From Candidatus Heimdallarchaeota archaeon (lineage in GTDB: Archaea > Asgardarchaeota > Heimdallarchaeia > Heimdallarchaeales > Heimdallarchaeaceae), in contig JAUWEG010000001.1 of the NCBI GenBank assembly GCA_030608385.1, positions 23,479 to 87,478 on the forward strand: a stretch of DNA of 64,000 bases. Direction: 5' to 3'. The notes beneath the pieces were generated by a model, which was not told the origin of the DNA, did not search any database, and saw only the letters and a program-made list of their open reading frames with translations. Below are positions 37,658 through 46,807 of the stretch, piece after piece (position 1 is the stretch's first letter; the number at the start of each line of letters is the position of its first letter). The position numbers and the translations under genes were made by a program.

Positions 37658-38383
37658 TTATCTGTATTCTGTGGGATCGTCTATACTTGCTTGAAGAAAA
37701 GCTCTTTTTCTCCTTTGGCAAGACTCACAGGTGCCACAATGTATTGGTTTTCCTTCATTTGTCCATTCCTCTATTTGGTAGCAGGATGATGAAAAAGCCA
37801 TTTTGGCATTGTTTTCAGTAAGAAATACAACTATGTCCTTCTTATCTGAATCATGAAATGGGGCTTGAATTGTAACTTGGTTTAAACACCCTAATTCAAT
37901 TGATTTATTCATCCTATTAACAAAATCTAAGGTATTATCTGGAAATGTGGTTCCTTCTTCCTTATTAGCTCCAAAAATTATATCTGTTGGTACTGTTGAA
38001 CTATCAGCTAAAGAAGCTGCTATTGAAAGAAAGAGAATATTTCTTCCTGGAATCCAAACTTCTTTAGCAGTTTGCAAAGCTAAATCTTTCCTATCTAATT
38101 GTTCAAAGGAGCTAACTTCTGGAGGTTTCTTTTCAGATTTTGTAAGACTAGAACCAGCTTCTTGGGAAAATTCTTCTAGAAAAGGCAAATTGATAATCTT
38201 AGTTTTAACAGAAAGCAAGGAGGAAAACTTTTTGTTGACCTTGATAATGGTTTGATCTTCTTTACTACCATAAAGAAAACTTAGTAGAGTTATTTCATCA
38301 TATTTTTGCATTGTCCAATATAAACATGCGGTGGAATCCATTCCCCCTGAAAACAAGACAATCGCTTTTCGCATATTTTTCAC
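37658..38383 (-). CDS. queC: 7-cyano-7-deazaguanine (preQ0) synthase QueC
   Basis: PP-loop LFSGGMDS. C-terminal zinc cluster CGTCESCQRRKRAF. Confidence 0.85.
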   Translation of the reverse strand: MKNMRKAIVLFSGGMDSTACLYWTMQKYDEITLLSFLYGSKEDQTIIKVNKKFSSLLSVKTKIINLPFLEEFSQEAGSSLTKSEKKPPEVSSFEQLDRKDLALQTAKEVWIPGRNILFLSIAASLADSSTVPTDIIFGANKEEGTTFPDNTLDFVNRMNKSIELGCLNQVTIQAPFHDSDKKDIVVFLTENNAKMAFSSSCYQIEEWTNEGKPIHCGTCESCQRRKRAFLQASIDDPTEYR

Positions 38384-38437
38384 CTGTTATCTACTGATAT
38401 TTCCGTATTATTCACGTATTATTTTCTCTTTAAAATC

Positions 38438-38890
38438 TCATTCTGTATATGTCACAACACTTGTAGGTGTCTCTGCCATTGTAATAGTTATTTTGAATTG
38501 AGGATACTGTTTTTTTATTAGGCTGTGAAAATATTTAGCCAATAGCTCTACAGTGGTTGCTTCTAAAGGGAGCAAAATTACATCCTCTCTTGGAAAACGA
38601 TAATATCTTCCTTCACATGTGTCAACTATGACTTGTTTGTCTGTGGTTGTTATTTTTAAGTCCTTGTTAAAATCGGGAATAAGAACTCTGTGATCAAATT
38701 TTTTTACTATCTTCCCAACAGCTGTTTTGAAGATCCCAAAATCAATCAACATATTATTTTCATCCATTTTTCCTTCAACTTCAACCTCAATATCATAATT
38801 ATGACCATGGAGGCGTGCACATTTATCATGTCTTGTTAACATATGTGCTGAAGCAAAGGTTAATTTGTCACCAGAGATTTTTAATTTCAA
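38438..38890 (-). CDS. queD: 6-carboxy-5,6,7,8-tetrahydropterin synthase QueD (PTPS family)
   Basis: C-x3-HGHNY motif (CARLHGHNYDIE). Size is 150 aa. Confidence 0.85.
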   Translation of the reverse strand: MKLKISGDKLTFASAHMLTRHDKCARLHGHNYDIEVEVEGKMDENNMLIDFGIFKTAVGKIVKKFDHRVLIPDFNKDLKITTTDKQVIVDTCEGRYYRFPREDVILLPLEATTVELLAKYFHSLIKKQYPQFKITITMAETPTSVVTYTE

Positions 38891-38898
38891 ATTATCAC

Positions 38899-39531
38899 CT
38901 ATATTGTTCTAGTTTTTGCAATATCCTCTTTAATTTTGGATATTTCACTTACATATTTCTCAGCTATTTGAATTGCCAAGTTTTGTATTTCTTCTGTTTG
39001 TACTCCAAGATCCGTTAAACCAATAGCTTGAACATGTTCTGGAACTCCTGTGCTAAGGATATTTATTCCAAAGTGGATTTTACTACTTGAAATTCCTACT
39101 GTCGCGATTCCCACGTTTAGTTTTTTTCCATCAACGAAAATATCTGTTCCTTTTCTTTCAATTTGAATATTTTTTTCCTTCAAAATATCGATGACTGTTT
39201 GAGCAAATATCCGGAGTCTGTAATATTCTAATTCCATATTTGGTGGTTGTATATCAAATTCCTCAATTATGAAATGTAGGGAATCATCAGAACTAATTAA
39301 AATATTACTCAAGTGCGATTCTCTGAGAATATCTTTAATATCAACCATTTCCTTTGGAGAAAGCTTCATTCCCCCTCTAAAAACAAGAATACTATCTCCT
39401 ATTATACCATATTTTTCAGCTGTAAAATGACTTGAAAGCTGAGATCCATCATAAATCATTTGATTAGCAAAATCTTCTACAATGATATGATATGGCGGTT
39501 TATTTATTGTCTTCATTTGCTTCCAATCCAT
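38899..39531 (-). CDS. hypothetical protein embedded in the preQ0 cluster (210 aa)
   Basis: Intact ORF whose start overlaps the folE2 stop by 32 nt. No recognisable motif. Confidence 0.4.
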   Translation of the reverse strand: MDWKQMKTINKPPYHIIVEDFANQMIYDGSQLSSHFTAEKYGIIGDSILVFRGGMKLSPKEMVDIKDILRESHLSNILISSDDSLHFIIEEFDIQPPNMELEYYRLRIFAQTVIDILKEKNIQIERKGTDIFVDGKKLNVGIATVGISSSKIHFGINILSTGVPEHVQAIGLTDLGVQTEEIQNLAIQIAEKYVSEISKIKEDIAKTRTI

Positions 39532-40471
39532 TAAGTTGTTCCATCAATTTCTTTAAAGATATTTTAACTTCTGCAACTGCATTATGTTGATGAATGCTTT
39601 CATAGTTAATTTGTTTGACACAAATTAATGTTTCTGGGGGCTGATTTAAGTATTTTTTAGAAACTTTCTGCAAAATCGATCTTACAACATCCTCAACAAA
39701 GGCTGGATGTTGATGTGCATAGAGAACAACAGCTTGCTCATCTTTTCGTTTTAGTACTTCATGTGTAGGTGAGCTCATCGATGTTTCTAGTATTCCAATT
39801 ATATCTTCAAGTTCTATTCTTTCTGCATCTCTTGGTTGCTCAATTACTAAAATTGATTTTGATCTCTGATTATGCGATGCTAAAGGTATGGTTTCAATTA
39901 CGTAATCTATTTGTTCCTCTGTGAACCCCTCTTCTGCAAGTTTTTCCTTAGCAAAATCCCTTGATAGTTCTTGAGAACAGGGACAGACTGTTGTTCCTTC
40001 AACCTCTGCACCAATTATTTTAGTAATCGTAATATTTTCTCCAGTTTTATGCGCAAGAGCTCCAGCTCTTAATTTGTGAACACTGGATTTCTTCCTTCCA
40101 ATGGCTTCTGAATGAGTTTCCATTTCATAATCTGCAACAAGTGTTACTTCAGCATTAGTTGCTCCTGGTTGAATAGAAAGAACCTTTTCTGCAATTTGAG
40201 CACATAATTCTTCACAATCAGAAATAACTTCTCCTGTAAGTGTTGATATAACTTCATTAATAGCTTCTAGATTTCGGGACATGTGAATTCCTCTTTTTGA
40301 AGGCAATAAATCGACATAAACATCTATTTTTGCTGATAATTCATTATATTCACCAAAACGTTTCCTACGAATAATTTTTGGAATATCACTAACTCCTACT
40401 CTCCTAATACCTATCTGTATTTTTGATTCATCTGATTGAACATCTGATAGTTTTTTGCTATTTAGATTCAT
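39500..40471 (-). CDS. folE2: GTP cyclohydrolase FolE2/MptA family (type IB)
   Basis: IQIGIRRVGVSDI ... LLPSKRGIHMSRN pattern of GCH-IB. Size is 323 aa. Confidence 0.75.
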   Translation of the reverse strand: MNLNSKKLSDVQSDESKIQIGIRRVGVSDIPKIIRRKRFGEYNELSAKIDVYVDLLPSKRGIHMSRNLEAINEVISTLTGEVISDCEELCAQIAEKVLSIQPGATNAEVTLVADYEMETHSEAIGRKKSSVHKLRAGALAHKTGENITITKIIGAEVEGTTVCPCSQELSRDFAKEKLAEEGFTEEQIDYVIETIPLASHNQRSKSILVIEQPRDAERIELEDIIGILETSMSSPTHEVLKRKDEQAVVLYAHQHPAFVEDVVRSILQKVSKKYLNQPPETLICVKQINYESIHQHNAVAEVKISLKKLMEQLNGLEANEDNK

Positions 40472-40480
40472 CTTTATTCC

Positions 40481-41290
40481 CTACAAGATTTCTACGGCTT
40501 TGTGCATTTGTATTGAAATCCCTATTTTTTCAGGTGAAAGAAATTTCCCAGCAATTTGAGAGAAATCATTCACTTGCTCCCATGTTGGTTGTTCAACCTT
40601 AGAATTAACTATTGGTGTAACAAATTGGATAACAATGGGAAGATCTATGGATCCACACTTCTTTGCAATAATCTCAAAATTTTCTTTTTTTGAGGCTTTG
40701 GTTATTACAGTTTTTGCAAATACTTTAGTTCCTGCGTTTTTTAGTATCCTACTCATTTCTACTTCCTGATTTACAAGATTCTCCCATTCTAGAGCAGCAT
40801 TCGCTGTTTTATCCTTTATATCTACACATGCAAAATCAATTTTTTCTGATAATTTTTCTAGAAACACAAAATTATCCGTGTATGCTGTTTCTAAATATGT
40901 TTTATATCCTGCTTCTTTGAGAAGGCTAGTAATATCTTCAAAAAATGATTCCTGATACAAGGGCTCTCCCCCTGTCAAACTTACAGAGTGCAAATCCTTA
41001 GTAGAAAGCTTTTTCACAAAATCTAAAATTTCTTCAGGTGTCAAAGGGTTAGATATTTCTTCAAAGGATTGAGTTCCTGCTTGTGTTTCCACAAGACATT
41101 TTGATGGAGTTGTACTCCAAGATTTCGGAGAATCACACCAGATACAACCTTTTGTTCCATGAACACCTAAAGCAAGAGGACATCCTGAGAATCTGATGAA
41201 AATCTGTCTTAATCCATAACAGCTTCCTTCAACTGCTGCTCCTTCACCTTGGAAACTTGAGAATATTTCCTGTACGTAACCCTGTGACAT
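40481..41290 (-). CDS. queE: 7-carboxy-7-deazaguanine synthase QueE (radical SAM)
   Basis: EIFSSFQGEG and FIRFSGC signatures of QueE. Confidence 0.8.
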   Translation of the reverse strand: MSQGYVQEIFSSFQGEGAAVEGSCYGLRQIFIRFSGCPLALGVHGTKGCIWCDSPKSWSTTPSKCLVETQAGTQSFEEISNPLTPEEILDFVKKLSTKDLHSVSLTGGEPLYQESFFEDITSLLKEAGYKTYLETAYTDNFVFLEKLSEKIDFACVDIKDKTANAALEWENLVNQEVEMSRILKNAGTKVFAKTVITKASKKENFEIIAKKCGSIDLPIVIQFVTPIVNSKVEQPTWEQVNDFSQIAGKFLSPEKIGISIQMHKAVEIL

Positions 41291-41369
41291 TGATATATTA
41301 TTTTCTTAACTCTAAATAAAAATTCCTTATGATGATAGATTCAGTCATGCTGTAATAAAAGAAGATTTG

Positions 41370-41837
41370 CTATAAATTGTACTTACCTATCTGATCAAAT
41401 GTAGCATATTTTTCTACATATTCTCGAACTTTTCTAGCATATTCTTTAGGGTCTCTTTTCATCAGATTAGCAGCTGTTGAATTTAAAGGGTCATCAGGAT
41501 TTGGATTACTTAAAATGAAGCGAATTGATTCTATAACATCAACTAGATTGTTCGCTGGGGTCCAATCTGCGCCTAGAACCCCTACACATATTCTTGTATC
41601 AAATACATTAGCATGAAAAACCTTTGTTAGCATTTTTACCTTTGGAGGTTTGAATGGATATTCTCTCGGAATATCGATATCAAGTACAAAAACACCATTT
41701 TCATATAAACCTGCTCCAAAAATAAATCCCCTCCATTGAAGTGTATTTCCGTCTATTGGTTTGAATGTTGGCAATTCTTTTTTTAACTCATTGGCTTCGA
41801 TTGCTATTCTAGGCCAAAATTCTTCTTCTGCTAACAT
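41370..41837 (-). CDS. ubiquitin-conjugating enzyme E2 (UBC fold, catalytic Cys retained)
   Basis: FHANVFDTRICVGVLGADWTPA aligns to the E2 HPN-x-G-x-IC-LDIL-x-W-SPA active-site block. Size is 155 aa. Confidence 0.75.
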   Translation of the reverse strand: MLAEEEFWPRIAIEANELKKELPTFKPIDGNTLQWRGFIFGAGLYENGVFVLDIDIPREYPFKPPKVKMLTKVFHANVFDTRICVGVLGADWTPANNLVDVIESIRFILSNPNPDDPLNSTAANLMKRDPKEYARKVREYVEKYATFDQIGKYNL

Positions 41838-41877
41838 TGCTTCATATCCAGTATGTTTTTTTAAGGATGGTTGTAAC

Positions 41878-42041
41878 TAGTATCCTCCTGAACCTTTGTT
41901 CTGCATCTCTAGAAGTATCATGAGTATGGCTGCAATTAATCCTTTTTGATCTCCTGCAATTTTCTCAAATTCTTTTCTTTCTAACATCATTGCAACAGAA
42001 CGCCATCTAACTAGTAATTCCACGATGTCTCTTTCGCTCAT
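41878..42041 (-). CDS. unannotated mini-ORF (54 aa) ending in GSGG-Y, immediately upstream of the E2 gene
   Basis: My own translation of the minus strand gives MSERDIVELLVRWRSVAMMLERKEFEKIAGDQKGLIAAILMILLEMQNKGSGGY. The gap to the E2 start is 40 nt. Coding status is unproven. Confidence 0.25.
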
Positions 42042-42192
42042 TAGCCTTCATCTATGAAAAGTTTGCTAGATATATTAAGATTATGTCTCTCCTAAATGAA
42101 ATTTGATTCAGCTAATAAATGAAACTAGTTTTTGATTACGCCTAATCCACAAATTTTTTTAATTTGATAACAATTACTATATGTGAATATGT

Positions 42193-42879
42193 ATGAGTAA
42201 CCCAGAGGAAATGTTAGTTCAACTAATTAACTCAATCAATAAGCTTTCAACTCTTGTTCAAAATGTAAATGATGCGATTTCTAAACTATCTACTCAAATT
42301 ACGCAATTAGAAACAAAGATGACGGGTTTTTCTAATGTTGAAAATCAAGTTTCTGAGGTAGGTCTTAAACTCAGTGAGATTCCTGGAATTAAAGATATGA
42401 TCGCAAACCTAAACACTAAGATTGATGGGTTGGGATCTATTGCTGTTGCAGCTCCTGCAAAATCCAAAGGCAAAGCCAAGAAAGGATCTGCCCCTGCAGT
42501 TGCAGTACCCGCTGAACCAGCTCCAGTAGAATATACTTCTCCAGGTATAGCTGAAGAAGATGATGGAGCAGGAGTTTCAGCTGAAGCTGATGCAGCTTTT
42601 AATGCTGTTTCCAAGAAATTTAAACATATAACACAAATGGTTAGCCCTACTAGTAGTTGTGGGAACATATCAAAGATGATCGAAGATTTAAGGGATGAAG
42701 TCGAAACTCATGTCGGAATGTCACCAATGTTATATGAACTAAACTCTTGGGTTCAAAGAGTTTCAAAAATGCCTGAAGCAGATGTACTTCTTCCTGAAGT
42801 CCATTCTGAATTAATTGGTAAACTAGATGATTGGTTAACAAGAGTGACCAAAGCAATTCACTTAAAATATCAAGATTAA
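42193..42879 (+). CDS. coiled-coil protein with an Ala/Pro-rich linker and a helical C-terminal domain
   Basis: N-terminal heptad-rich 80 aa, then an AAPAKSKGKAKKGSAPAVAVPAEPAP linker, then a roughly 100 aa helical domain. Confidence 0.4.
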   Translation: MSNPEEMLVQLINSINKLSTLVQNVNDAISKLSTQITQLETKMTGFSNVENQVSEVGLKLSEIPGIKDMIANLNTKIDGLGSIAVAAPAKSKGKAKKGSAPAVAVPAEPAPVEYTSPGIAEEDDGAGVSAEADAAFNAVSKKFKHITQMVSPTSSCGNISKMIEDLRDEVETHVGMSPMLYELNSWVQRVSKMPEADVLLPEVHSELIGKLDDWLTRVTKAIHLKYQD

Positions 42880-42966: not shown

Positions 42967-43605
42967 ATGATGAATCTAGGTGATATTAAGGGCATCATAG
43001 AGATAAACGGTGAGTCTTATGATCCAAAAGAGGTTCTTAGAGCTCTTCTTGAACAAGGTTTGAAAATCCATCCTTTAAATGGTTCCTTACTAATTGGACG
43101 AACTTTTATTGATCCTGCCCCAAATCTTGAATTTAGGAGCAAATCCTGTCCAATATCTACCCACTGTAAGATTTTTGAAAAACTGAACTTGTCAAAAGAA
43201 GAAACAACAGATTCTTCATTAACTTCATATGACCCTGACTTTGATTCACAATCACCTTCTAGTCCATCGCAATCTCCCCCTAACAGATCTTATACTGATC
43301 CAGTTCAGATGGATATTGATAATATGGATACCCAAAGTTTTTTTTCAGAATCATCCATTGAAGAGACAGTTTTACCATATGATGAACCTCAGAATAGTTC
43401 AGTTCTAAGGACCAACATAATCGATAATTTAGAACCTGAACCTGCTGAAATGATGGGAGTGTCTCCTGTAACAAAATATGGTGAATCGATGAACATAGAT
43501 GTTTCTCACATACCGTTAGAATACAAGGGAAGATGTCCTTATTGCAAATCTGTTGTTAATATGAAATGGAAGTTTTGTGGAACTTGTGGCACTCATATGC
43601 AATAA
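42967..43605 (+). CDS. protein with a ubiquitin-like-looking N-terminal domain, a Ser/Pro-rich linker and a C-terminal Cys4 zinc ribbon
   Basis: N-terminus roughly 60 aa (GESYDPKEVLRALLEQGLKIHPLNGSLLIGRTF) parallels the ubiquitin [41 protein letters not shown] segment. C-terminus CPYC-x11-CGTC. Confidence 0.35.
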   Translation: MMNLGDIKGIIEINGESYDPKEVLRALLEQGLKIHPLNGSLLIGRTFIDPAPNLEFRSKSCPISTHCKIFEKLNLSKEETTDSSLTSYDPDFDSQSPSSPSQSPPNRSYTDPVQMDIDNMDTQSFFSESSIEETVLPYDEPQNSSVLRTNIIDNLEPEPAEMMGVSPVTKYGESMNIDVSHIPLEYKGRCPYCKSVVNMKWKFCGTCGTHMQ

Positions 43606-43613
43606 ATTAAAGG

Positions 43614-44981
43614 TTAGTCTGAACCCTCTACGTCAACACAACCTTCTGGTGTTATTGCAAATACAGCTTCTGATTCTGGTAAATATGGTGAGTCATAAAT
43701 TCTAATAATTCTCTTCTCGCCTTTGGATTTTCTTAAATAGAATCTAGTTATAGCCCAGTGACCAAGGATATTTCCACCAATCGCTTGAGTTGGATCACCA
43801 AAAAAGGCTGCGGGATTTGACTGAACCTGGTTTGTGATTGCAATAGCTACATTATAGGTGTCTGCTAATCTTCCAAGAATCCCTAAATGATGGTTGATTG
43901 TTTGTTGTCTCTCAGCAAGAGTTCCTCTTCCCGCATATTCTGCTCTAAAATGAGCTGTAGCAGAATCAAGAGCAACAAGCCCATATTCATCCTTGTGGTT
44001 GTAAAACAATTCAAGTAGTCTTTCTACTAGAGTCATTTGATGATCTGAGTTATACGCTCTTGCGTAAGTTATGTCTCTAAGAACATCCTCAAAACTTTTC
44101 TCCCAACCTAAATCATTTTGTAATTTACCATGAATTGCTTTAATTCTACTAGGAGAAAATGTTCCCTCAGTATCTATAAATACAGCTTTCTTTCCAACTC
44201 CTCCTAATTCTGGTGGAAGTTGAACAGTTACACAAAGCTGGTGGCATAATTGTGACTTTCCAGAGCGGAAAGGTCCAAAAAGTTCTATAGTCTCTCCAAG
44301 CCTCACTCCAGCAACATCTAATTCCTCAATAGTTGTTAACGCATCTAATGCTTTAATCCCATAAGAAAAAGCTGGAGACCCCTTCTGTTTTTCCATTATC
44401 TCAAAACCGTTAATGAACTCAATTCCTCCACGTGCCTCAGTAAGAGCTTGCTTGTATTTTTTTGCAGCACTTGCTGTAATCCCATACTTTTCTTCTAATT
44501 CTCTTATAGGAGTTGTTTCAAGAAGATAAACGTTTAATCCCTTCTCTCTTAGCATATCTGCGGTAGTTTTTCCTACTCCAGGTAAATCTTCTAAACCGAT
44601 TTCTTCTTTGAAAAACCTATACTTTTGTACTGTAGAAATTATTTCTCCCCTAATTTTCTTTGCAATAGCTCTTTGGACACCCATTGTCTGTAATTCAATA
44701 AGCCTTGTCGTCATTAATTTTTCAATAGTTGTGATTTCATTCTCAATTAAAATTTCCAGGGTTTTCTTTCCTAAACCTGGAACATCTTTAAGTTTCAGCT
44801 CAACATCTGCTTTTTTCTTCTTAGAATTCTCTTGTTCTTCTATCTCAATTAGATGTTCTTCGTATTGTTCTCCAATTTCCTTTGAATCAGGCTTAGTGGT
44901 TTCTTCCTGTGTTTCTTTGCTCATATTATGCACCACTGCTATTACTCCGAAGAGGTTAGAGTATTTAAAGATAATACTCAT
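43614..44981 (-). CDS. radA: DNA repair/recombination protein RadA with a duplicated N-terminal HhH module
   Basis: Walker A GPFRSGKSQ and Walker B AVFIDTEG. Two consecutive (V/L)PG(L/V)GKxT HhH units. The true start is possibly the internal Met (MSKETQ). Confidence 0.9.
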   Translation of the reverse strand: MSIIFKYSNLFGVIAVVHNMSKETQEETTKPDSKEIGEQYEEHLIEIEEQENSKKKKADVELKLKDVPGLGKKTLEILIENEITTIEKLMTTRLIELQTMGVQRAIAKKIRGEIISTVQKYRFFKEEIGLEDLPGVGKTTADMLREKGLNVYLLETTPIRELEEKYGITASAAKKYKQALTEARGGIEFINGFEIMEKQKGSPAFSYGIKALDALTTIEELDVAGVRLGETIELFGPFRSGKSQLCHQLCVTVQLPPELGGVGKKAVFIDTEGTFSPSRIKAIHGKLQNDLGWEKSFEDVLRDITYARAYNSDHQMTLVERLLELFYNHKDEYGLVALDSATAHFRAEYAGRGTLAERQQTINHHLGILGRLADTYNVAIAITNQVQSNPAAFFGDPTQAIGGNILGHWAITRFYLRKSKGEKRIIRIYDSPYLPESEAVFAITPEGCVDVEGSD

Positions 44982-46255: not shown

Positions 46256-46807
46256 TTATCTTCCTGCTCGTTTCATAGTTTCATTTTTTATTGCATTTCC
46301 TAGAAGAGCTTTAACTAATTCTCCTATTCCGGCTCCAGTTAATGCTGATGTTTCAAGATATCTACAGCCTAGTTTTCTAGATATTCTTTCTGCATCCCCT
46401 CTTAAAACTTCACGTTTTGCATCAGTTTTATTGCCAACAATTGTAATATCCAAATCAAGATTTTGATTTCTAAGTTCTCTAATCCAATCTGCACACTCTT
46501 TGAATGATTCTCTCCTAGATACATCAAAGATGATTGCTGCAGCATTGGTTCCTGAATATAGGAGATTCCTAACTACTCCAAATCTTTTTTGTCCTGCCAT
46601 GTCGTAAAACAGTGCTACCGCTTTTCCTTTGCCAGTTTTAAATGAATAAGTATGGAATTCAGCCCCTACAGTTGGCTTATAATGTTTTAGAAAAATATTT
46701 TCTGTTATCCTTTTGCAAATTGTTGTTTTTCCCGATCTACCGGGTCCACATATGGCTAACTTGTATATATCGTAATCTCGAAATTTAACTTCCACTTTGG
46801 AATTCAT
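46256..46807 (-). CDS. Ras-superfamily small GTPase (Rab/Ras-like)
   Basis: G1 GPGRSGKT, G3 DMAGQ (Ras-type catalytic Gln), G4 GNKTD, G5 TSAL. Size is 183 aa. Confidence 0.8.
   Translation of the reverse strand: MNSKVEVKFRDYDIYKLAICGPGRSGKTTICKRITENIFLKHYKPTVGAEFHTYSFKTGKGKAVALFYDMAGQKRFGVVRNLLYSGTNAAAIIFDVSRRESFKECADWIRELRNQNLDLDITIVGNKTDAKREVLRGDAERISRKLGCRYLETSALTGAGIGELVKALLGNAIKNETMKRAGR

What the first reader, a model, noticed from the sequence alone, without database searches (positions are those of the whole stretch)
41878..42041. Mini-ORF ending in -GSGG-Y directly 5' of the E2 gene
The 54-codon ORF is below the track threshold, is same-strand and lies 40 nt upstream of the E2 start. 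A GG motif one residue from the C-terminus is the hallmark of ubiquitin-like precursors trimmed to expose Gly-Gly. The body is short and looks rather helical, so it may instead be a non-canonical small partner or non-coding.
Basis: seen in the sequence. Interest (0 to 1): 0.55.

Follow-up and report, generated by a model that had tools for sequence, protein, structure and literature searches.

The report
Small helical protein gene beside E2
The 54-codon ORF is a real, strongly conserved gene of Heimdall-group Asgard archaea that always sits next to a ubiquitin-conjugating (E2) enzyme gene. It encodes a small all-helical protein of an undescribed family, not a ubiquitin-like modifier, and its Gly-Gly tail is a dispensable, lineage-specific appendage.

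Summary
The ORF exists as described: minus strand, 42041 to 41880, stop at 41877-41879, 39 nt before the UBC E2 gene. It is a real gene. Homologues lie beside the E2 in every Heimdallarchaeaceae genome examined. dN/dS is 0.01-0.10, and 66% of nucleotide differences fall at third codon positions.

The ubiquitin-like reading fails:
- The GG is not conserved. Tails read GSGGY, SGVY, SRGY or TGGF, or are absent. In one lineage a nonsense mutation removed the tail.
- AlphaFold models are all-helical.
- No Ub/ThiS/MoaD similarity was found. The same search finds genuine ubiquitin genes directly 5' of the E2 in Aigarchaeota loci.

The protein is one ~40-residue helix-loop-helix unit with the signature W-[RK]...F...[KR]-G-h-h-A-A. 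A second Heimdall lineage carries a tandem duplication of this unit (86-90 aa; confident four-helix model), transcribed divergently from its E2.

Only the pairing with the E2 survives across four different gene arrangements. Pfam, NCBIfam and PDB give no convincing match.

Best reading: an E2-dedicated accessory protein forming a four-helix bundle as a dimer (~0.45). Main rival: a small dedicated regulator of the E2 locus (~0.25). Neither could be tested here.

The parts
41877..42041 (-). Mini-ORF coding sequence (54 codons plus TAG stop). It encodes one helix-loop-helix unit of an undescribed Heimdallarchaeia-specific family. The conserved core is residues 1-48.
   Evidence: homologues. (codon-position bias, dN/dS 0.01-0.10). 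(AF2 pLDDT 81, helices 3-20 and 23-50).
41880..41894 (-). C-terminal tail G50-S-G-G-Y54. It is predicted disordered, specific to one sub-lineage and dispensable. It is not a conserved di-glycine.
   Evidence: residues 52-54 pLDDT <50. (tail variants GSGGY/GSGGF/KSGVY/SSRGY/KTGGF/KGVY, or absent). (nonsense loss in L035).
41838..41876 (-). 39-nt spacer between the mini-ORF stop and the E2 start. It has no terminator, and purine-rich GGA/GAGG/AGGG runs lie within about 15 nt before the E2 ATG across relatives. Co-transcription is inferred.
   Evidence: no terminator-like site. (spacer 10-109 nt in relatives; frame relation not conserved; stops present in most, so no read-through fusion).
42042..42086 (-). 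Conserved upstream block ACATAATCTTAATATATCTAGCAAACTTTTCATAGATGAAGGCTA. It contains a TATA-like TTAATATAT (42070-42078; -37..-29) and a Shine-Dalgarno-like GAAGG (42045-42049; -8..-4).
   Evidence: alignment of 36 distinct upstream regions; the TTAATA core and the GA..CTA block are >=80% conserved. Promoter function is inferred.
41370..41837 (-). UBC-fold ubiquitin-conjugating enzyme E2 (155 aa; H75-A76-N77, catalytic Cys84). It is the only gene that stays adjacent to the mini-protein family in all arrangements.
   Evidence: UQ_con E 3.5e-34. (adjacency)..
42193..42879 (+). Divergently transcribed 228-aa protein (cc228): coiled coil, Ala/Pro-rich linker and a C-terminal helical domain. It stays in the mini/E2 cluster within Heimdallarchaeaceae.
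   Evidence: (weak similarity to a protein directly upstream of E2 in Hod/Wukong loci).
42967..43605 (+). 212-aa protein (zr212) with a C-terminal zinc ribbon. It follows cc228 here and follows the E2 in Ca. Heimdallarchaeum.
   Evidence: DZR, below Pfam's cut-off. (L038/L039 arrangement).
37658..41290 (-). Downstream same-strand genes of the probable operon, for preQ0/7-deazaguanine synthesis: QueE-like radical SAM (40481-41290), FolE2 GTP cyclohydrolase (39500-40471), DUF366 (38899-39531), QueD/PTPS (38438-38890), QueC (37658-38383).
   Evidence: Pfam labels of the syntenic genes..

Best explanation
The mini-ORF is a genuine protein-coding gene and the first cistron of a transcription unit that continues into the UBC E2 gene. 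Its product is a ~50-residue helix-loop-helix protein. An amphipathic helix carries an invariant Trp flanked by basic residues. A loop with a conserved Phe and a [KR]-Gly follows, and then a very hydrophobic helix (G-L-I-A-A-I-L-M-I-L-L).

A sister lineage encodes two such units in tandem, and these fold into a compact four-helix domain. The single-unit protein therefore most likely works as a homodimeric four-helix bundle (inferred).

Adjacency to the E2 is the one feature kept through four different gene arrangements. The most likely role is therefore a dedicated accessory of that E2: a small partner that binds the E2, or E2 plus ubiquitin, and modulates or targets its activity. This resembles in principle the short helical E2-binding regions of eukaryotic cofactors.

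The GSGGY tail is a disordered, sub-lineage-specific appendage that is not needed for the family's function. The protein is not a ubiquitin-like modifier.

Shown: coding status, conservation, helical prediction, tandem-repeat relative, E2 linkage, and absence of Ubl features. Inferred: dimerisation, co-transcription, and physical interaction with the E2.
For: Coding and under purifying selection:
- differences 28.5/5.5/65.9% by codon position; 9243 synonymous versus 3771 non-synonymous codon differences.
- dN/dS 0.014-0.10.

Family:
- 25 homologues, all Heimdall MAGs, all labelled 'hypothetical protein'.
- an exhaustive phmmer search found only 5 representative clusters.
- HMM hits beside E2 in all Heimdallarchaeaceae loci.

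Tandem-unit relatives:
-.
- hhalign single-unit versus double-unit family: 94.4% probability, E 8.7e-8.
- First half versus second half of the double-unit protein: 95.8% probability, E 7.7e-9.

Structure:
- single unit, helices 3-20 and 23-50, pLDDT 81.
- double unit, four helices, pLDDT 89.3, pTM 0.76.

E2 linkage survives rearrangement:
- Co-directional, with a 10-109 nt spacer.
- A different upstream neighbour (RsmB) in L012/13.
- Divergent from E2 in the complete Ca. Heimdallarchaeum genomes, where E2 and cc228 have swapped places.
- Divergent pair between MetRS and pyrophosphatase/aminotransferase genes in the double-unit lineage.

Other points:
- The 10-nt spacing in L021/22/28 suggests tight co-expression.
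- No terminator lies between the genes.
- A conserved TATA-like and SD-like block lies upstream.
- The single-unit proteins are neutral to acidic (pI 5.2-6.2), which is atypical for a DNA binder.
Against: No physical interaction was tested.

No sequence or fold similarity to any known E2-binding, ubiquitin-binding or other domain was found.

The two arrangements seen, first gene of the operon or divergently transcribed, are also the classic arrangements of a dedicated transcriptional regulator. The double-unit lineage has a conserved pseudo-palindromic element twice in the shared intergenic region.

A comparison of E2s with and without the partner found no partner-specific E2 surface signature.

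Several Heimdall E2 clades lack the family altogether, so it is not a general requirement of these E2s.
Confidence: 0.45

Rival explanations
1. A small dedicated transcriptional regulator. A helix-loop-helix dimer (pseudo-dimer in the tandem form) would bind a symmetric operator and control its own expression and that of the E2 locus.
For: The gene is either first in the operon or divergent from the E2, which are the typical positions of an autoregulator.

The predicted (pseudo-)two-fold architecture suits palindromic DNA.

Basic residues are invariant in every unit: [RK]-W-[RK] and [KR]-G.

In the tandem-unit lineage an ~18-nt pseudo-palindrome (ATTCMRAAARNCTTTCRRA) occurs twice, ~100 nt apart, in the shared intergenic region. 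19 of 24 pattern hits in 141 kb are at these two sites. The tandem form is basic (pI 9.6).
Against: The protein has no helix-turn-helix, ribbon-helix-helix, basic region or any Pfam/NCBIfam DNA-binding signature.

Single-unit proteins are neutral to acidic (pI 5.2-6.2) and L065 is pI 6.3.

The palindromic element is absent from the window and all single-unit loci. It could instead be bound by another factor or be part of the promoters.
Confidence: 0.25
2. A functionally unrelated small protein, for example a structural, chaperone-like or membrane-peripheral helical hairpin. Its adjacency to the E2 would reflect inherited synteny or a shared promoter rather than a joint function.
For: Within each lineage the whole neighbourhood is syntenic, so many of the observations are not independent. 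No functional signature of any kind was found. The second helix is strongly hydrophobic.
Against: The adjacency persists through at least four independent rearrangements in which all other neighbours change, including an inversion that separates the E2 from the que genes. The hydrophobic stretch is only ~10 residues, too short for a transmembrane helix (sequence).
Confidence: 0.2
3. One reading: a ubiquitin-like modifier precursor whose C-terminal residue is trimmed to expose Gly-Gly for conjugation by the adjacent E2.
For: GG lies one residue from the C-terminus in the window and its closest relatives.

Genuine archaeal ubiquitin precursors do sit directly 5' of the E2 on the same strand in Aigarchaeota/Caldarchaeales loci L074-L093. 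The Caldiarchaeum ubiquitin is made as a precursor processed by Rpn11 (PMC6043591, PMC5654768).
Against: GG is replaced by GV or RG, or the tail is absent, in many orthologues, including the complete Heimdallarchaeum genomes. The tail was lost by a nonsense mutation in L035.

The models are all-helical.

No Ub, ThiS or MoaD similarity was found.

No E1 or JAMM gene lies in the neighbourhood.

The close relative AB_125 encodes a canonical ubiquitin elsewhere (HeimAB125_14240; PMC9192718).
Confidence: 0.02
4. Not an independent gene: a chance ORF or non-coding leader, a regulatory upstream ORF or leader peptide, or an N-terminal extension of the E2 made by read-through of the in-frame TAG.
For: In the window the TAG stop and the E2 ATG are in the same frame, with no other stop in the 39-nt spacer. 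About 35 ORFs of this size are expected by chance in such a window.
Against: The coding signature is strong and dN/dS is 0.01-0.10.

The stop codon varies (TAA/TAG/TGA). The frame relation to the E2 is 0, 1 or 2, and additional stops are present in most relatives.

The gene stands alone on the opposite strand in three lineages.

No Rfam family reaches threshold; the best hit is a chance-level snoZ152 match at 22.6 bits against a gathering score of 50.
Confidence: 0.02

Closest known systems
Archaeal ubiquitin precursor genes of Caldiarchaeum-type Ub/E1/E2/RING/Rpn11 operons (PMC3082918, PMC5654768, PMC6043591)
   Same: A small ORF directly 5' of, and co-directional with, a UBC E2. It has a Gly-Gly followed by a short extension at the C-terminus. 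This arrangement was observed here in loci L074-L093.
   Different: Those proteins are ~75-90 aa beta-grasp ubiquitins with an invariant ...TR[TV][EG]GG motif, detectable with human ubiquitin (E 1e-5 to 1e-10). The mini-ORF is 49-57 aa and all-helical, has no ubiquitin similarity, and its GG is not conserved.
Short helical E2-binding regions of eukaryotic cofactors: Cue1 U7BR, gp78/AUP1 G2BR, Bre1/Rad18 Rad6-binding regions (PMC8699718, PMC10018343; own knowledge)
   Same: They are small, purely helical and dedicated to one E2. This is the functional analogy proposed for the mini-protein.
   Different: Those are segments of larger eukaryotic proteins and show no detectable homology. Binding of the mini-protein to its E2 is inferred from gene linkage only and was not tested. 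The mini-protein is a free-standing, probably dimeric four-helix-bundle protein.
Helix-loop-helix dimerisation domains (bHLH/Id-type four-helix-bundle dimers; own knowledge)
   Same: The architecture matches: helix, loop, hydrophobic helix of ~45-50 residues. A tandem version folds into a four-helix bundle, which implies that single units pair the same way.
   Different: No Pfam HLH match at E <= 10 in any of 51 members. There is no basic region, since only 2-5 residues precede helix 1. bHLH is a eukaryotic DNA-binding family. The resemblance is architectural only.
Small autoregulatory repressors encoded first in, or divergently from, the operon they control (e.g. ribbon-helix-helix CopG/Arc-type proteins; own knowledge)
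   Same: Similar size (~45-55 aa), a likely dimer, and a gene position at the head of, or divergent from, the linked operon.
   Different: The models show no N-terminal beta-strand, since the helix starts at residue 3. There are no RHH or HTH Pfam hits, and the single-unit proteins are not basic.

Membership tests
Ubiquitin-like modifiers (ubiquitin, SAMP, Urm1, ThiS/MoaD beta-grasp proteins) | Beta-grasp fold | tested here: not met
   The AF2 model with a 26-sequence alignment has helices 3-20 and 23-50 and no strands, pLDDT 81. The tandem-unit relative has four helices, pLDDT 89.3.
Ubiquitin-like modifiers (ubiquitin, SAMP, Urm1, ThiS/MoaD beta-grasp proteins) | Conserved C-terminal Gly-Gly (or terminal Gly), exposed directly or after trimming | tested here: not met
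   Tails are GSGGY, GSGGF, KSGVY, SSRGY, KTGGF or KGVY, or are absent (the protein then ends ...MQQD...QKQGK...QQRR...SKEK...QKD...QKR or ...NRP). A nonsense mutation removed the tail in L035.
Ubiquitin-like modifiers (ubiquitin, SAMP, Urm1, ThiS/MoaD beta-grasp proteins) | Sequence similarity to a ubiquitin, ThiS, MoaD or Urm1 family | tested here: not met
   No Pfam hit at E <= 10 for any of 26 members. Human-ubiquitin phmmer and an archaeal-ubiquitin HMM found nothing in the window or in any mini-containing locus. The same searches found 23 ubiquitin genes at E < 1e-3 in other loci, which served as positive controls.
Ubiquitin-like modifiers (ubiquitin, SAMP, Urm1, ThiS/MoaD beta-grasp proteins) | Encoded with an E1-like activating enzyme and/or a JAMM or other processing protease | tested here: not met
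   No ThiF/E1 or JAMM family appears among the called genes within +/-6 kb in L001-L003, L009 and L012. Genome-wide presence was not testable here.
Ubiquitin-like modifiers (ubiquitin, SAMP, Urm1, ThiS/MoaD beta-grasp proteins) | Covalent conjugation to targets through the C-terminus | not testable with these tools
   This needs proteomics or in-vitro reconstitution.
Eukaryotic-type helical E2-binding regions (U7BR, G2BR, Rad6-binding regions) | Direct binding to the cognate E2 (typically its backside), with an effect on activity | not testable with these tools
Only gene linkage is available.
Eukaryotic-type helical E2-binding regions (U7BR, G2BR, Rad6-binding regions) | Sequence or structural homology to a described E2-binding region | tested here: not met
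   No Pfam, NCBIfam or PDB-sequence match. No Foldseek PDB match with E < 3.
UBA/CUE ubiquitin-binding three-helix bundles | Match to UBA/CUE profiles and a three-helix bundle of ~40 residues | tested here: not met
   No UBA or CUE hit at E <= 10 in 51 family members. The models show two helices per unit.
Ribbon-helix-helix or helix-turn-helix small regulators | N-terminal beta-strand followed by two helices (RHH), or a helix-turn-helix motif, with matching family profiles | tested here: not met
   The models show a helix from residue 3 and no strand. No Pfam or NCBIfam DNA-binding family matched. DNA binding itself was not testable.
bHLH/HLH domain | Basic region N-terminal to helix 1 and a match to the HLH profile | tested here: not met
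   Only MSER precedes helix 1. No HLH hit was found.
SufU/IscU Fe-S scaffold (C-terminal helices) | Family-level profile match and conserved Cys ligands | tested here: not met
   Only B. subtilis SufU is hit by the tandem-unit profile (E 7e-4; domain E 0.015). No NifU_N Pfam hit in 25 members. No IscU/SufU among the Foldseek hits. The ligand Cys is not aligned to a Cys.

The most novel reading that the evidence does not exclude
The mini-protein and its tandem-duplicated relative form an Asgard-specific helix-loop-helix family that is an obligate partner of a eukaryote-type UBC E2. It would be a primitive, free-standing E2 cofactor or adaptor, analogous to but independent of eukaryotic E2-binding helices. 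It might couple ubiquitylation to the co-transcribed 7-deazaguanine (archaeosine precursor) pathway, or to the co-clustered coiled-coil and zinc-ribbon proteins.
Probability: 0.3. Interest if true: 0.7.

Novelty: new variant of a known kind. Interest (0 to 1): 0.42.

Why it matters
Heimdallarchaeia are the closest known archaeal relatives of eukaryotes, and their ubiquitin machinery is studied as a model for the origin of the eukaryotic system. Published surveys catalogue ubiquitin, E1, E2, E3 and deubiquitinase by known domains. A 50-residue protein with no domain hit is invisible to them.

If this family is an E2 cofactor, it adds an unrecognised component to the Asgard ubiquitin toolkit. 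It also gives a simple, testable two-protein system: the E2 plus a 6-kDa partner, with a natural single-chain pseudo-dimer as a control.

If it is instead a regulator, it identifies how one E2 locus is controlled.

The finding also corrects an attractive but wrong call. Not every small ORF with a near-terminal GG next to an E2 is a ubiquitin-like protein.

Tried and rejected
- **Ubl precursor:** rejected, as set out in the membership tests.
- **Read-through fusion with the E2:** the in-frame TAG in the window prompted this. It is rejected because frame, stop codon and spacer stops vary among relatives.
- **RNA element or riboswitch ahead of the que genes:** no Rfam family reaches threshold. 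The substitution pattern is that of a protein-coding sequence.
- **Profile against PDB sequences:** only a borderline Bacillus SufU hit. It is judged chance because Pfam NifU_N, other IscU/SufU entries and Foldseek do not support it.
- **More distant family members:** an HMM of single units found none in the mini-less E2 loci.
- **E2 residues specific to partner-containing clades:** only K66 and an alignment-end artefact emerged, which is uninformative.
- **Shared operator in the window's own intergenic region:** only a local direct repeat that is not conserved.
- **Gene fusions involving the family:** P0025, P0130 and P0131 look like frameshifted or chimeric short contigs.

Full report
**1. 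The observation**

The ORF lies on the minus strand. Its ATG is at 42041, Tyr54 at 41882-41880 and the TAG stop at 41879-41877. The product is MSERDIVELLVRWRSVAMMLERKEFEKIAGDQKGLIAAILMILLEMQNKGSGGY.

Thirty-nine nucleotides downstream on the same strand starts a 155-aa UBC-fold E2 (41837-41370). It matches Pfam UQ_con at E 3.5e-34 and keeps His75, Asn77 and Cys84. So the description is accurate apart from a one-base difference in the spacing.

Length alone means little. Shuffled versions of this 34%-GC window contain about 35 ATG-ORFs of at least 54 codons.

**2. It is a real gene**

A search of 5.8 billion proteins returned 25 homologues of 73-98% identity. All come from Heimdallarchaeota/Heimdallarchaeaceae assemblies, and those that carry a name are called 'hypothetical protein'. 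An exhaustive phmmer scan of 1.84 billion cluster representatives added only three more distant clusters.

Over 34 distinct coding sequences, nucleotide differences fall 28.5%, 5.5% and 65.9% on codon positions 1, 2 and 3. Codon differences are synonymous 9243 times and non-synonymous 3771 times. Pairwise dN/dS is 0.014-0.10.

A block immediately upstream is conserved across the family. It holds a TATA-like TTAATAWAT at -37..-29 and a GAAGG/GAGG at -8..-4. No terminator-like site separates the ORF from the E2. No Rfam family reaches threshold there. The gene is therefore protein-coding and probably the first cistron of the E2 transcription unit.

**3. It is not a ubiquitin-like precursor**

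Residues 1-48 are nearly invariant, but the tail is not. It reads GSGGY, GSGGF, KSGVY, SSRGY, KTGGF or KGVY, or is missing altogether. It is missing in Ca. Heimdallarchaeum (…LELQKR) and in L012 (…EMQKD), L009 (…LQNRP), L008/L036/L063 and L004.

In L035 a TCG->TAG change truncates the protein before the tail, and the former tail codons have since decayed.

AlphaFold2 with the family alignment predicts helices 3-20 and 23-50, with a disordered end (pLDDT 81).

No ubiquitin, ThiS or MoaD family matches. As a positive control, human ubiquitin and an archaeal-ubiquitin HMM were run against the six-frame translations of the window and of 93 related loci. They found ~80-aa ubiquitins (…LITRTVGG plus an extension) immediately 5' of the E2 in all 20 Aigarchaeota/Caldarchaeales loci. 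They also found ubiquitins within 5 kb in three Heimdall loci of another E2 clade. They found nothing in the window or in any locus that carries the mini-ORF.

Here, however, the slot is occupied by something else. The close relative AB_125 has its canonical ubiquitin elsewhere (HeimAB125_14240; PMC9192718).

**4. What the protein is**

An HMM of the family was searched against loci collected around E2 homologues from one genome per species.

In all Heimdallarchaeaceae loci with intact sequence upstream of the E2, the hit lies just upstream of the E2.

In a second Heimdall lineage the hit is an 86-90-aa protein made of two copies of the same ~40-residue unit. Profile-profile comparison supports the homology:
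- single-unit family versus tandem-unit family: 94.4% probability, E 8.7e-8;
- first half versus second half of the tandem protein: 95.8% probability, E 7.7e-9.

The unit reads h-x-x-h-[IV]-[RK]-W-[KR]-x-h-x-x-h-L-x-[KR]-[DE]-x-F-x(3-6)-[KR]-G-h-h-A-A-h-h-x-L.

The tandem protein is predicted with confidence as a compact four-helix domain (pLDDT 89.3, pTM 0.76). This suggests that the single-unit protein forms the same bundle as a homodimer; that step is an inference.

Neither form matches Pfam, NCBIfam or PDB sequences convincingly, and neither matches PDB folds by Foldseek. One borderline hit to Bacillus SufU has no family-level or structural support and is treated as chance.

**5. The link to the E2**

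Four arrangements were found:
- (i) Window type: cc228 and zr212 on one strand, and mini -> E2 -> QueE -> FolE2 -> DUF366 -> QueD -> QueC on the other.
- (ii) L012/L013: an RsmB-like gene replaces the divergent pair, and mini -> E2 -> que is kept.
- (iii) The complete genomes of Ca. Heimdallarchaeum aukensis and endolithica: QueE <- cc228 <- mini | E2 -> zr212. Here the mini gene is divergent from the E2, and the E2 is separated from the que genes.
- (iv) The tandem-unit lineage: a divergent mini2 | E2 pair lies between MetRS and aminotransferase/pyrophosphatase/Thy1 genes. It has no que, cc228 or zr212 homologue nearby.

Look-ups that started from the small protein rather than from the E2 found a UQ_con gene next to it wherever the contig extended that far.

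The spacer in the co-directional form is 10-109 nt. Its frame and stop content vary, which excludes a read-through fusion.

On a rough neighbour-joining tree, the E2s with the partner form the Heimdallarchaeaceae clade, the tandem-unit clade and L065. Other Heimdall E2 clades lack the partner and instead have ubiquitin or other conserved neighbours.

**6. Mechanism**

The best-supported reading is an E2-dedicated accessory protein. It would be a four-helix-bundle (pseudo)dimer that binds the E2, or the E2 and ubiquitin, and modulates or directs it.

This rests on the exclusive and rearrangement-proof gene pairing, the tight spacing in some genomes, and the non-basic character of the single-unit form (pI 5.2-6.2). 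I give it about 0.45.

The main rival is a small dedicated regulator, at about 0.25. Three observations favour it:
- The gene positions are those of an autoregulator.
- The architecture is two-fold symmetric.
- The tandem-unit lineage carries an ~18-nt pseudo-palindrome twice, ~100 nt apart, in the shared intergenic region. 19 of 24 pattern matches in 141 kb are at these two sites.

Against it, no DNA-binding signature was found. The element is also absent from the window and from all single-unit loci.

A third possibility is an unrelated small protein kept nearby by history, at about 0.2.

I could not run a complex prediction. A search for partner-specific E2 residues was uninformative.

**7. 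Comparison with known systems and novelty**

By position the ORF mimics the ubiquitin gene of Caldiarchaeum-type operons, but it fails every testable defining feature of ubiquitin-like modifiers.

By proposed function it resembles the short helical E2-binding regions of eukaryotic cofactors (U7BR, G2BR, Rad6-binding regions; PMC8699718, PMC10018343). There is no homology to these, and binding is untested.

By architecture it resembles helix-loop-helix dimerisation modules. It has no basic region and no profile match.

It is thus an undescribed small-protein family of Heimdallarchaeia. I rate it a new variant of a known kind (small dedicated partners of ubiquitin-system enzymes) rather than something categorically new. 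Interest is moderate at 0.42. It is a clean, testable addition to the Asgard ubiquitin toolkit, but its function remains inferred.

Noticed in passing
window 37658-41837 (minus strand); L012, L065, L067: A eukaryote-type UBC E2 heads an operon for preQ0/7-deazaguanine synthesis (QueE, FolE2, DUF366, QueD, QueC). E2-que proximity recurs in other Heimdall lineages: L012/13; L065, with QueD and FolE2 convergent; and L067 (Hodarchaeota), with E2 -> QueC and QueD/FolE2/QueE nearby. It is broken in Ca. Heimdallarchaeum and in the tandem-unit lineage. A functional link between the E2 and tRNA-modification precursor synthesis is possible but untested.
   Followed up: partly
window 42193-42879 (+) and 42967-43605 (+); L038/L039; L067 3790-4677, L068 3827-4585: Two uncharacterised proteins stay clustered with mini and E2 in Heimdallarchaeaceae. 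One (cc228) has a coiled coil, an Ala/Pro-rich linker and a C-terminal helical domain. The other (zr212) has a C-terminal zinc ribbon. In Heimdallarchaeum, cc228 follows the mini gene and zr212 follows the E2. A protein of similar architecture lies directly upstream of the E2 in Hodarchaeota and Wukongarchaeum loci (BLASTP E 1e-4 over 81 C-terminal residues). They are candidate further partners or substrates of this E2.
   Followed up: partly
L055 5787-5802 and 5892-5906 (equivalents in L047-L056, L064, L094): A conserved ~18-nt pseudo-palindromic element (ATTCMRAAARNCTTTCRRA, core GAAA-N3-TTTC) is present twice, ~100 nt apart, in the divergent intergenic region between the tandem-unit gene and its E2. 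It is rare elsewhere in these loci. It could be a regulator binding site or an unusual shared promoter core.
   Followed up: partly
L074-L093 (e.g. L084 5703-5972, L087 3734-4006); L057 1020-1301, L061 1820-2107, L071 10307-10609: Genuine archaeal ubiquitin genes (…LITRT[VE]GG plus a 2-8-residue extension) lie directly 5' of the E2 in all 20 Aigarchaeota/Caldarchaeales loci fetched. They also lie within ~5 kb of the E2 in three Heimdall loci of a different E2 clade.
   Followed up: yes
window 41607-41615 (E2 codons 75-77): The window's E2 has His-Ala-Asn in place of the canonical His-Pro-Asn motif. Pro is present in at least 90% of the aligned Heimdall E2s. The catalytic Cys84 is retained.
   Followed up: no
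L041-L046, L060 (e.g. L042 5440-5796 and 2188-5439; L060 5424-5801 and 2305-5427): An E2 clade without the mini-protein keeps two other conserved neighbours. One is a ~118-125-aa protein (N-terminus …F(L/R)xKxK…PKKKL(D/E)…). The other is a ~1040-1083-aa protein. Neither has an assigned function here.
   Followed up: no
tandem-unit family (A5) positions 14-59 versus B. subtilis SufU residues 92-138: There is a borderline profile hit (E 7e-4) to the C-terminal helices of SufU (…GVSKFPARIKCATLSWKAL… versus …CLSKYPATLDTVVRWKAL…). It is unsupported by Pfam NifU_N, other IscU/SufU structures or Foldseek. It is probably chance, but remains unexplained.
   Followed up: partly
window 41838-41879; L014-L017: In the window and its nearest relatives the mini-ORF stop (TAG or TAA) and the E2 ATG are in the same frame, with no other stop in the 39-nt spacer. 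This is not conserved in other relatives: the frame is 1 or 2, or extra stops are present.
   Followed up: yes
window 42093-42131: A direct repeat (TAAATGAAATTTGATT / TAAATGAAACTAGTTT, 23 nt start-to-start) lies in the middle of the mini/cc228 intergenic region. This part of the region is not conserved beyond the closest relatives.
   Followed up: partly
window 46256-46807 (-), 43614-44981 (-): A small Arf/Ras/Roc-type GTPase and a RadA with an extended N-terminal helix-hairpin-helix region lie a few kb from the E2. Both are syntenic in relatives. A small GTPase also lies near the E2 in the Hodarchaeota and Wukong loci L067/L068.
   Followed up: no
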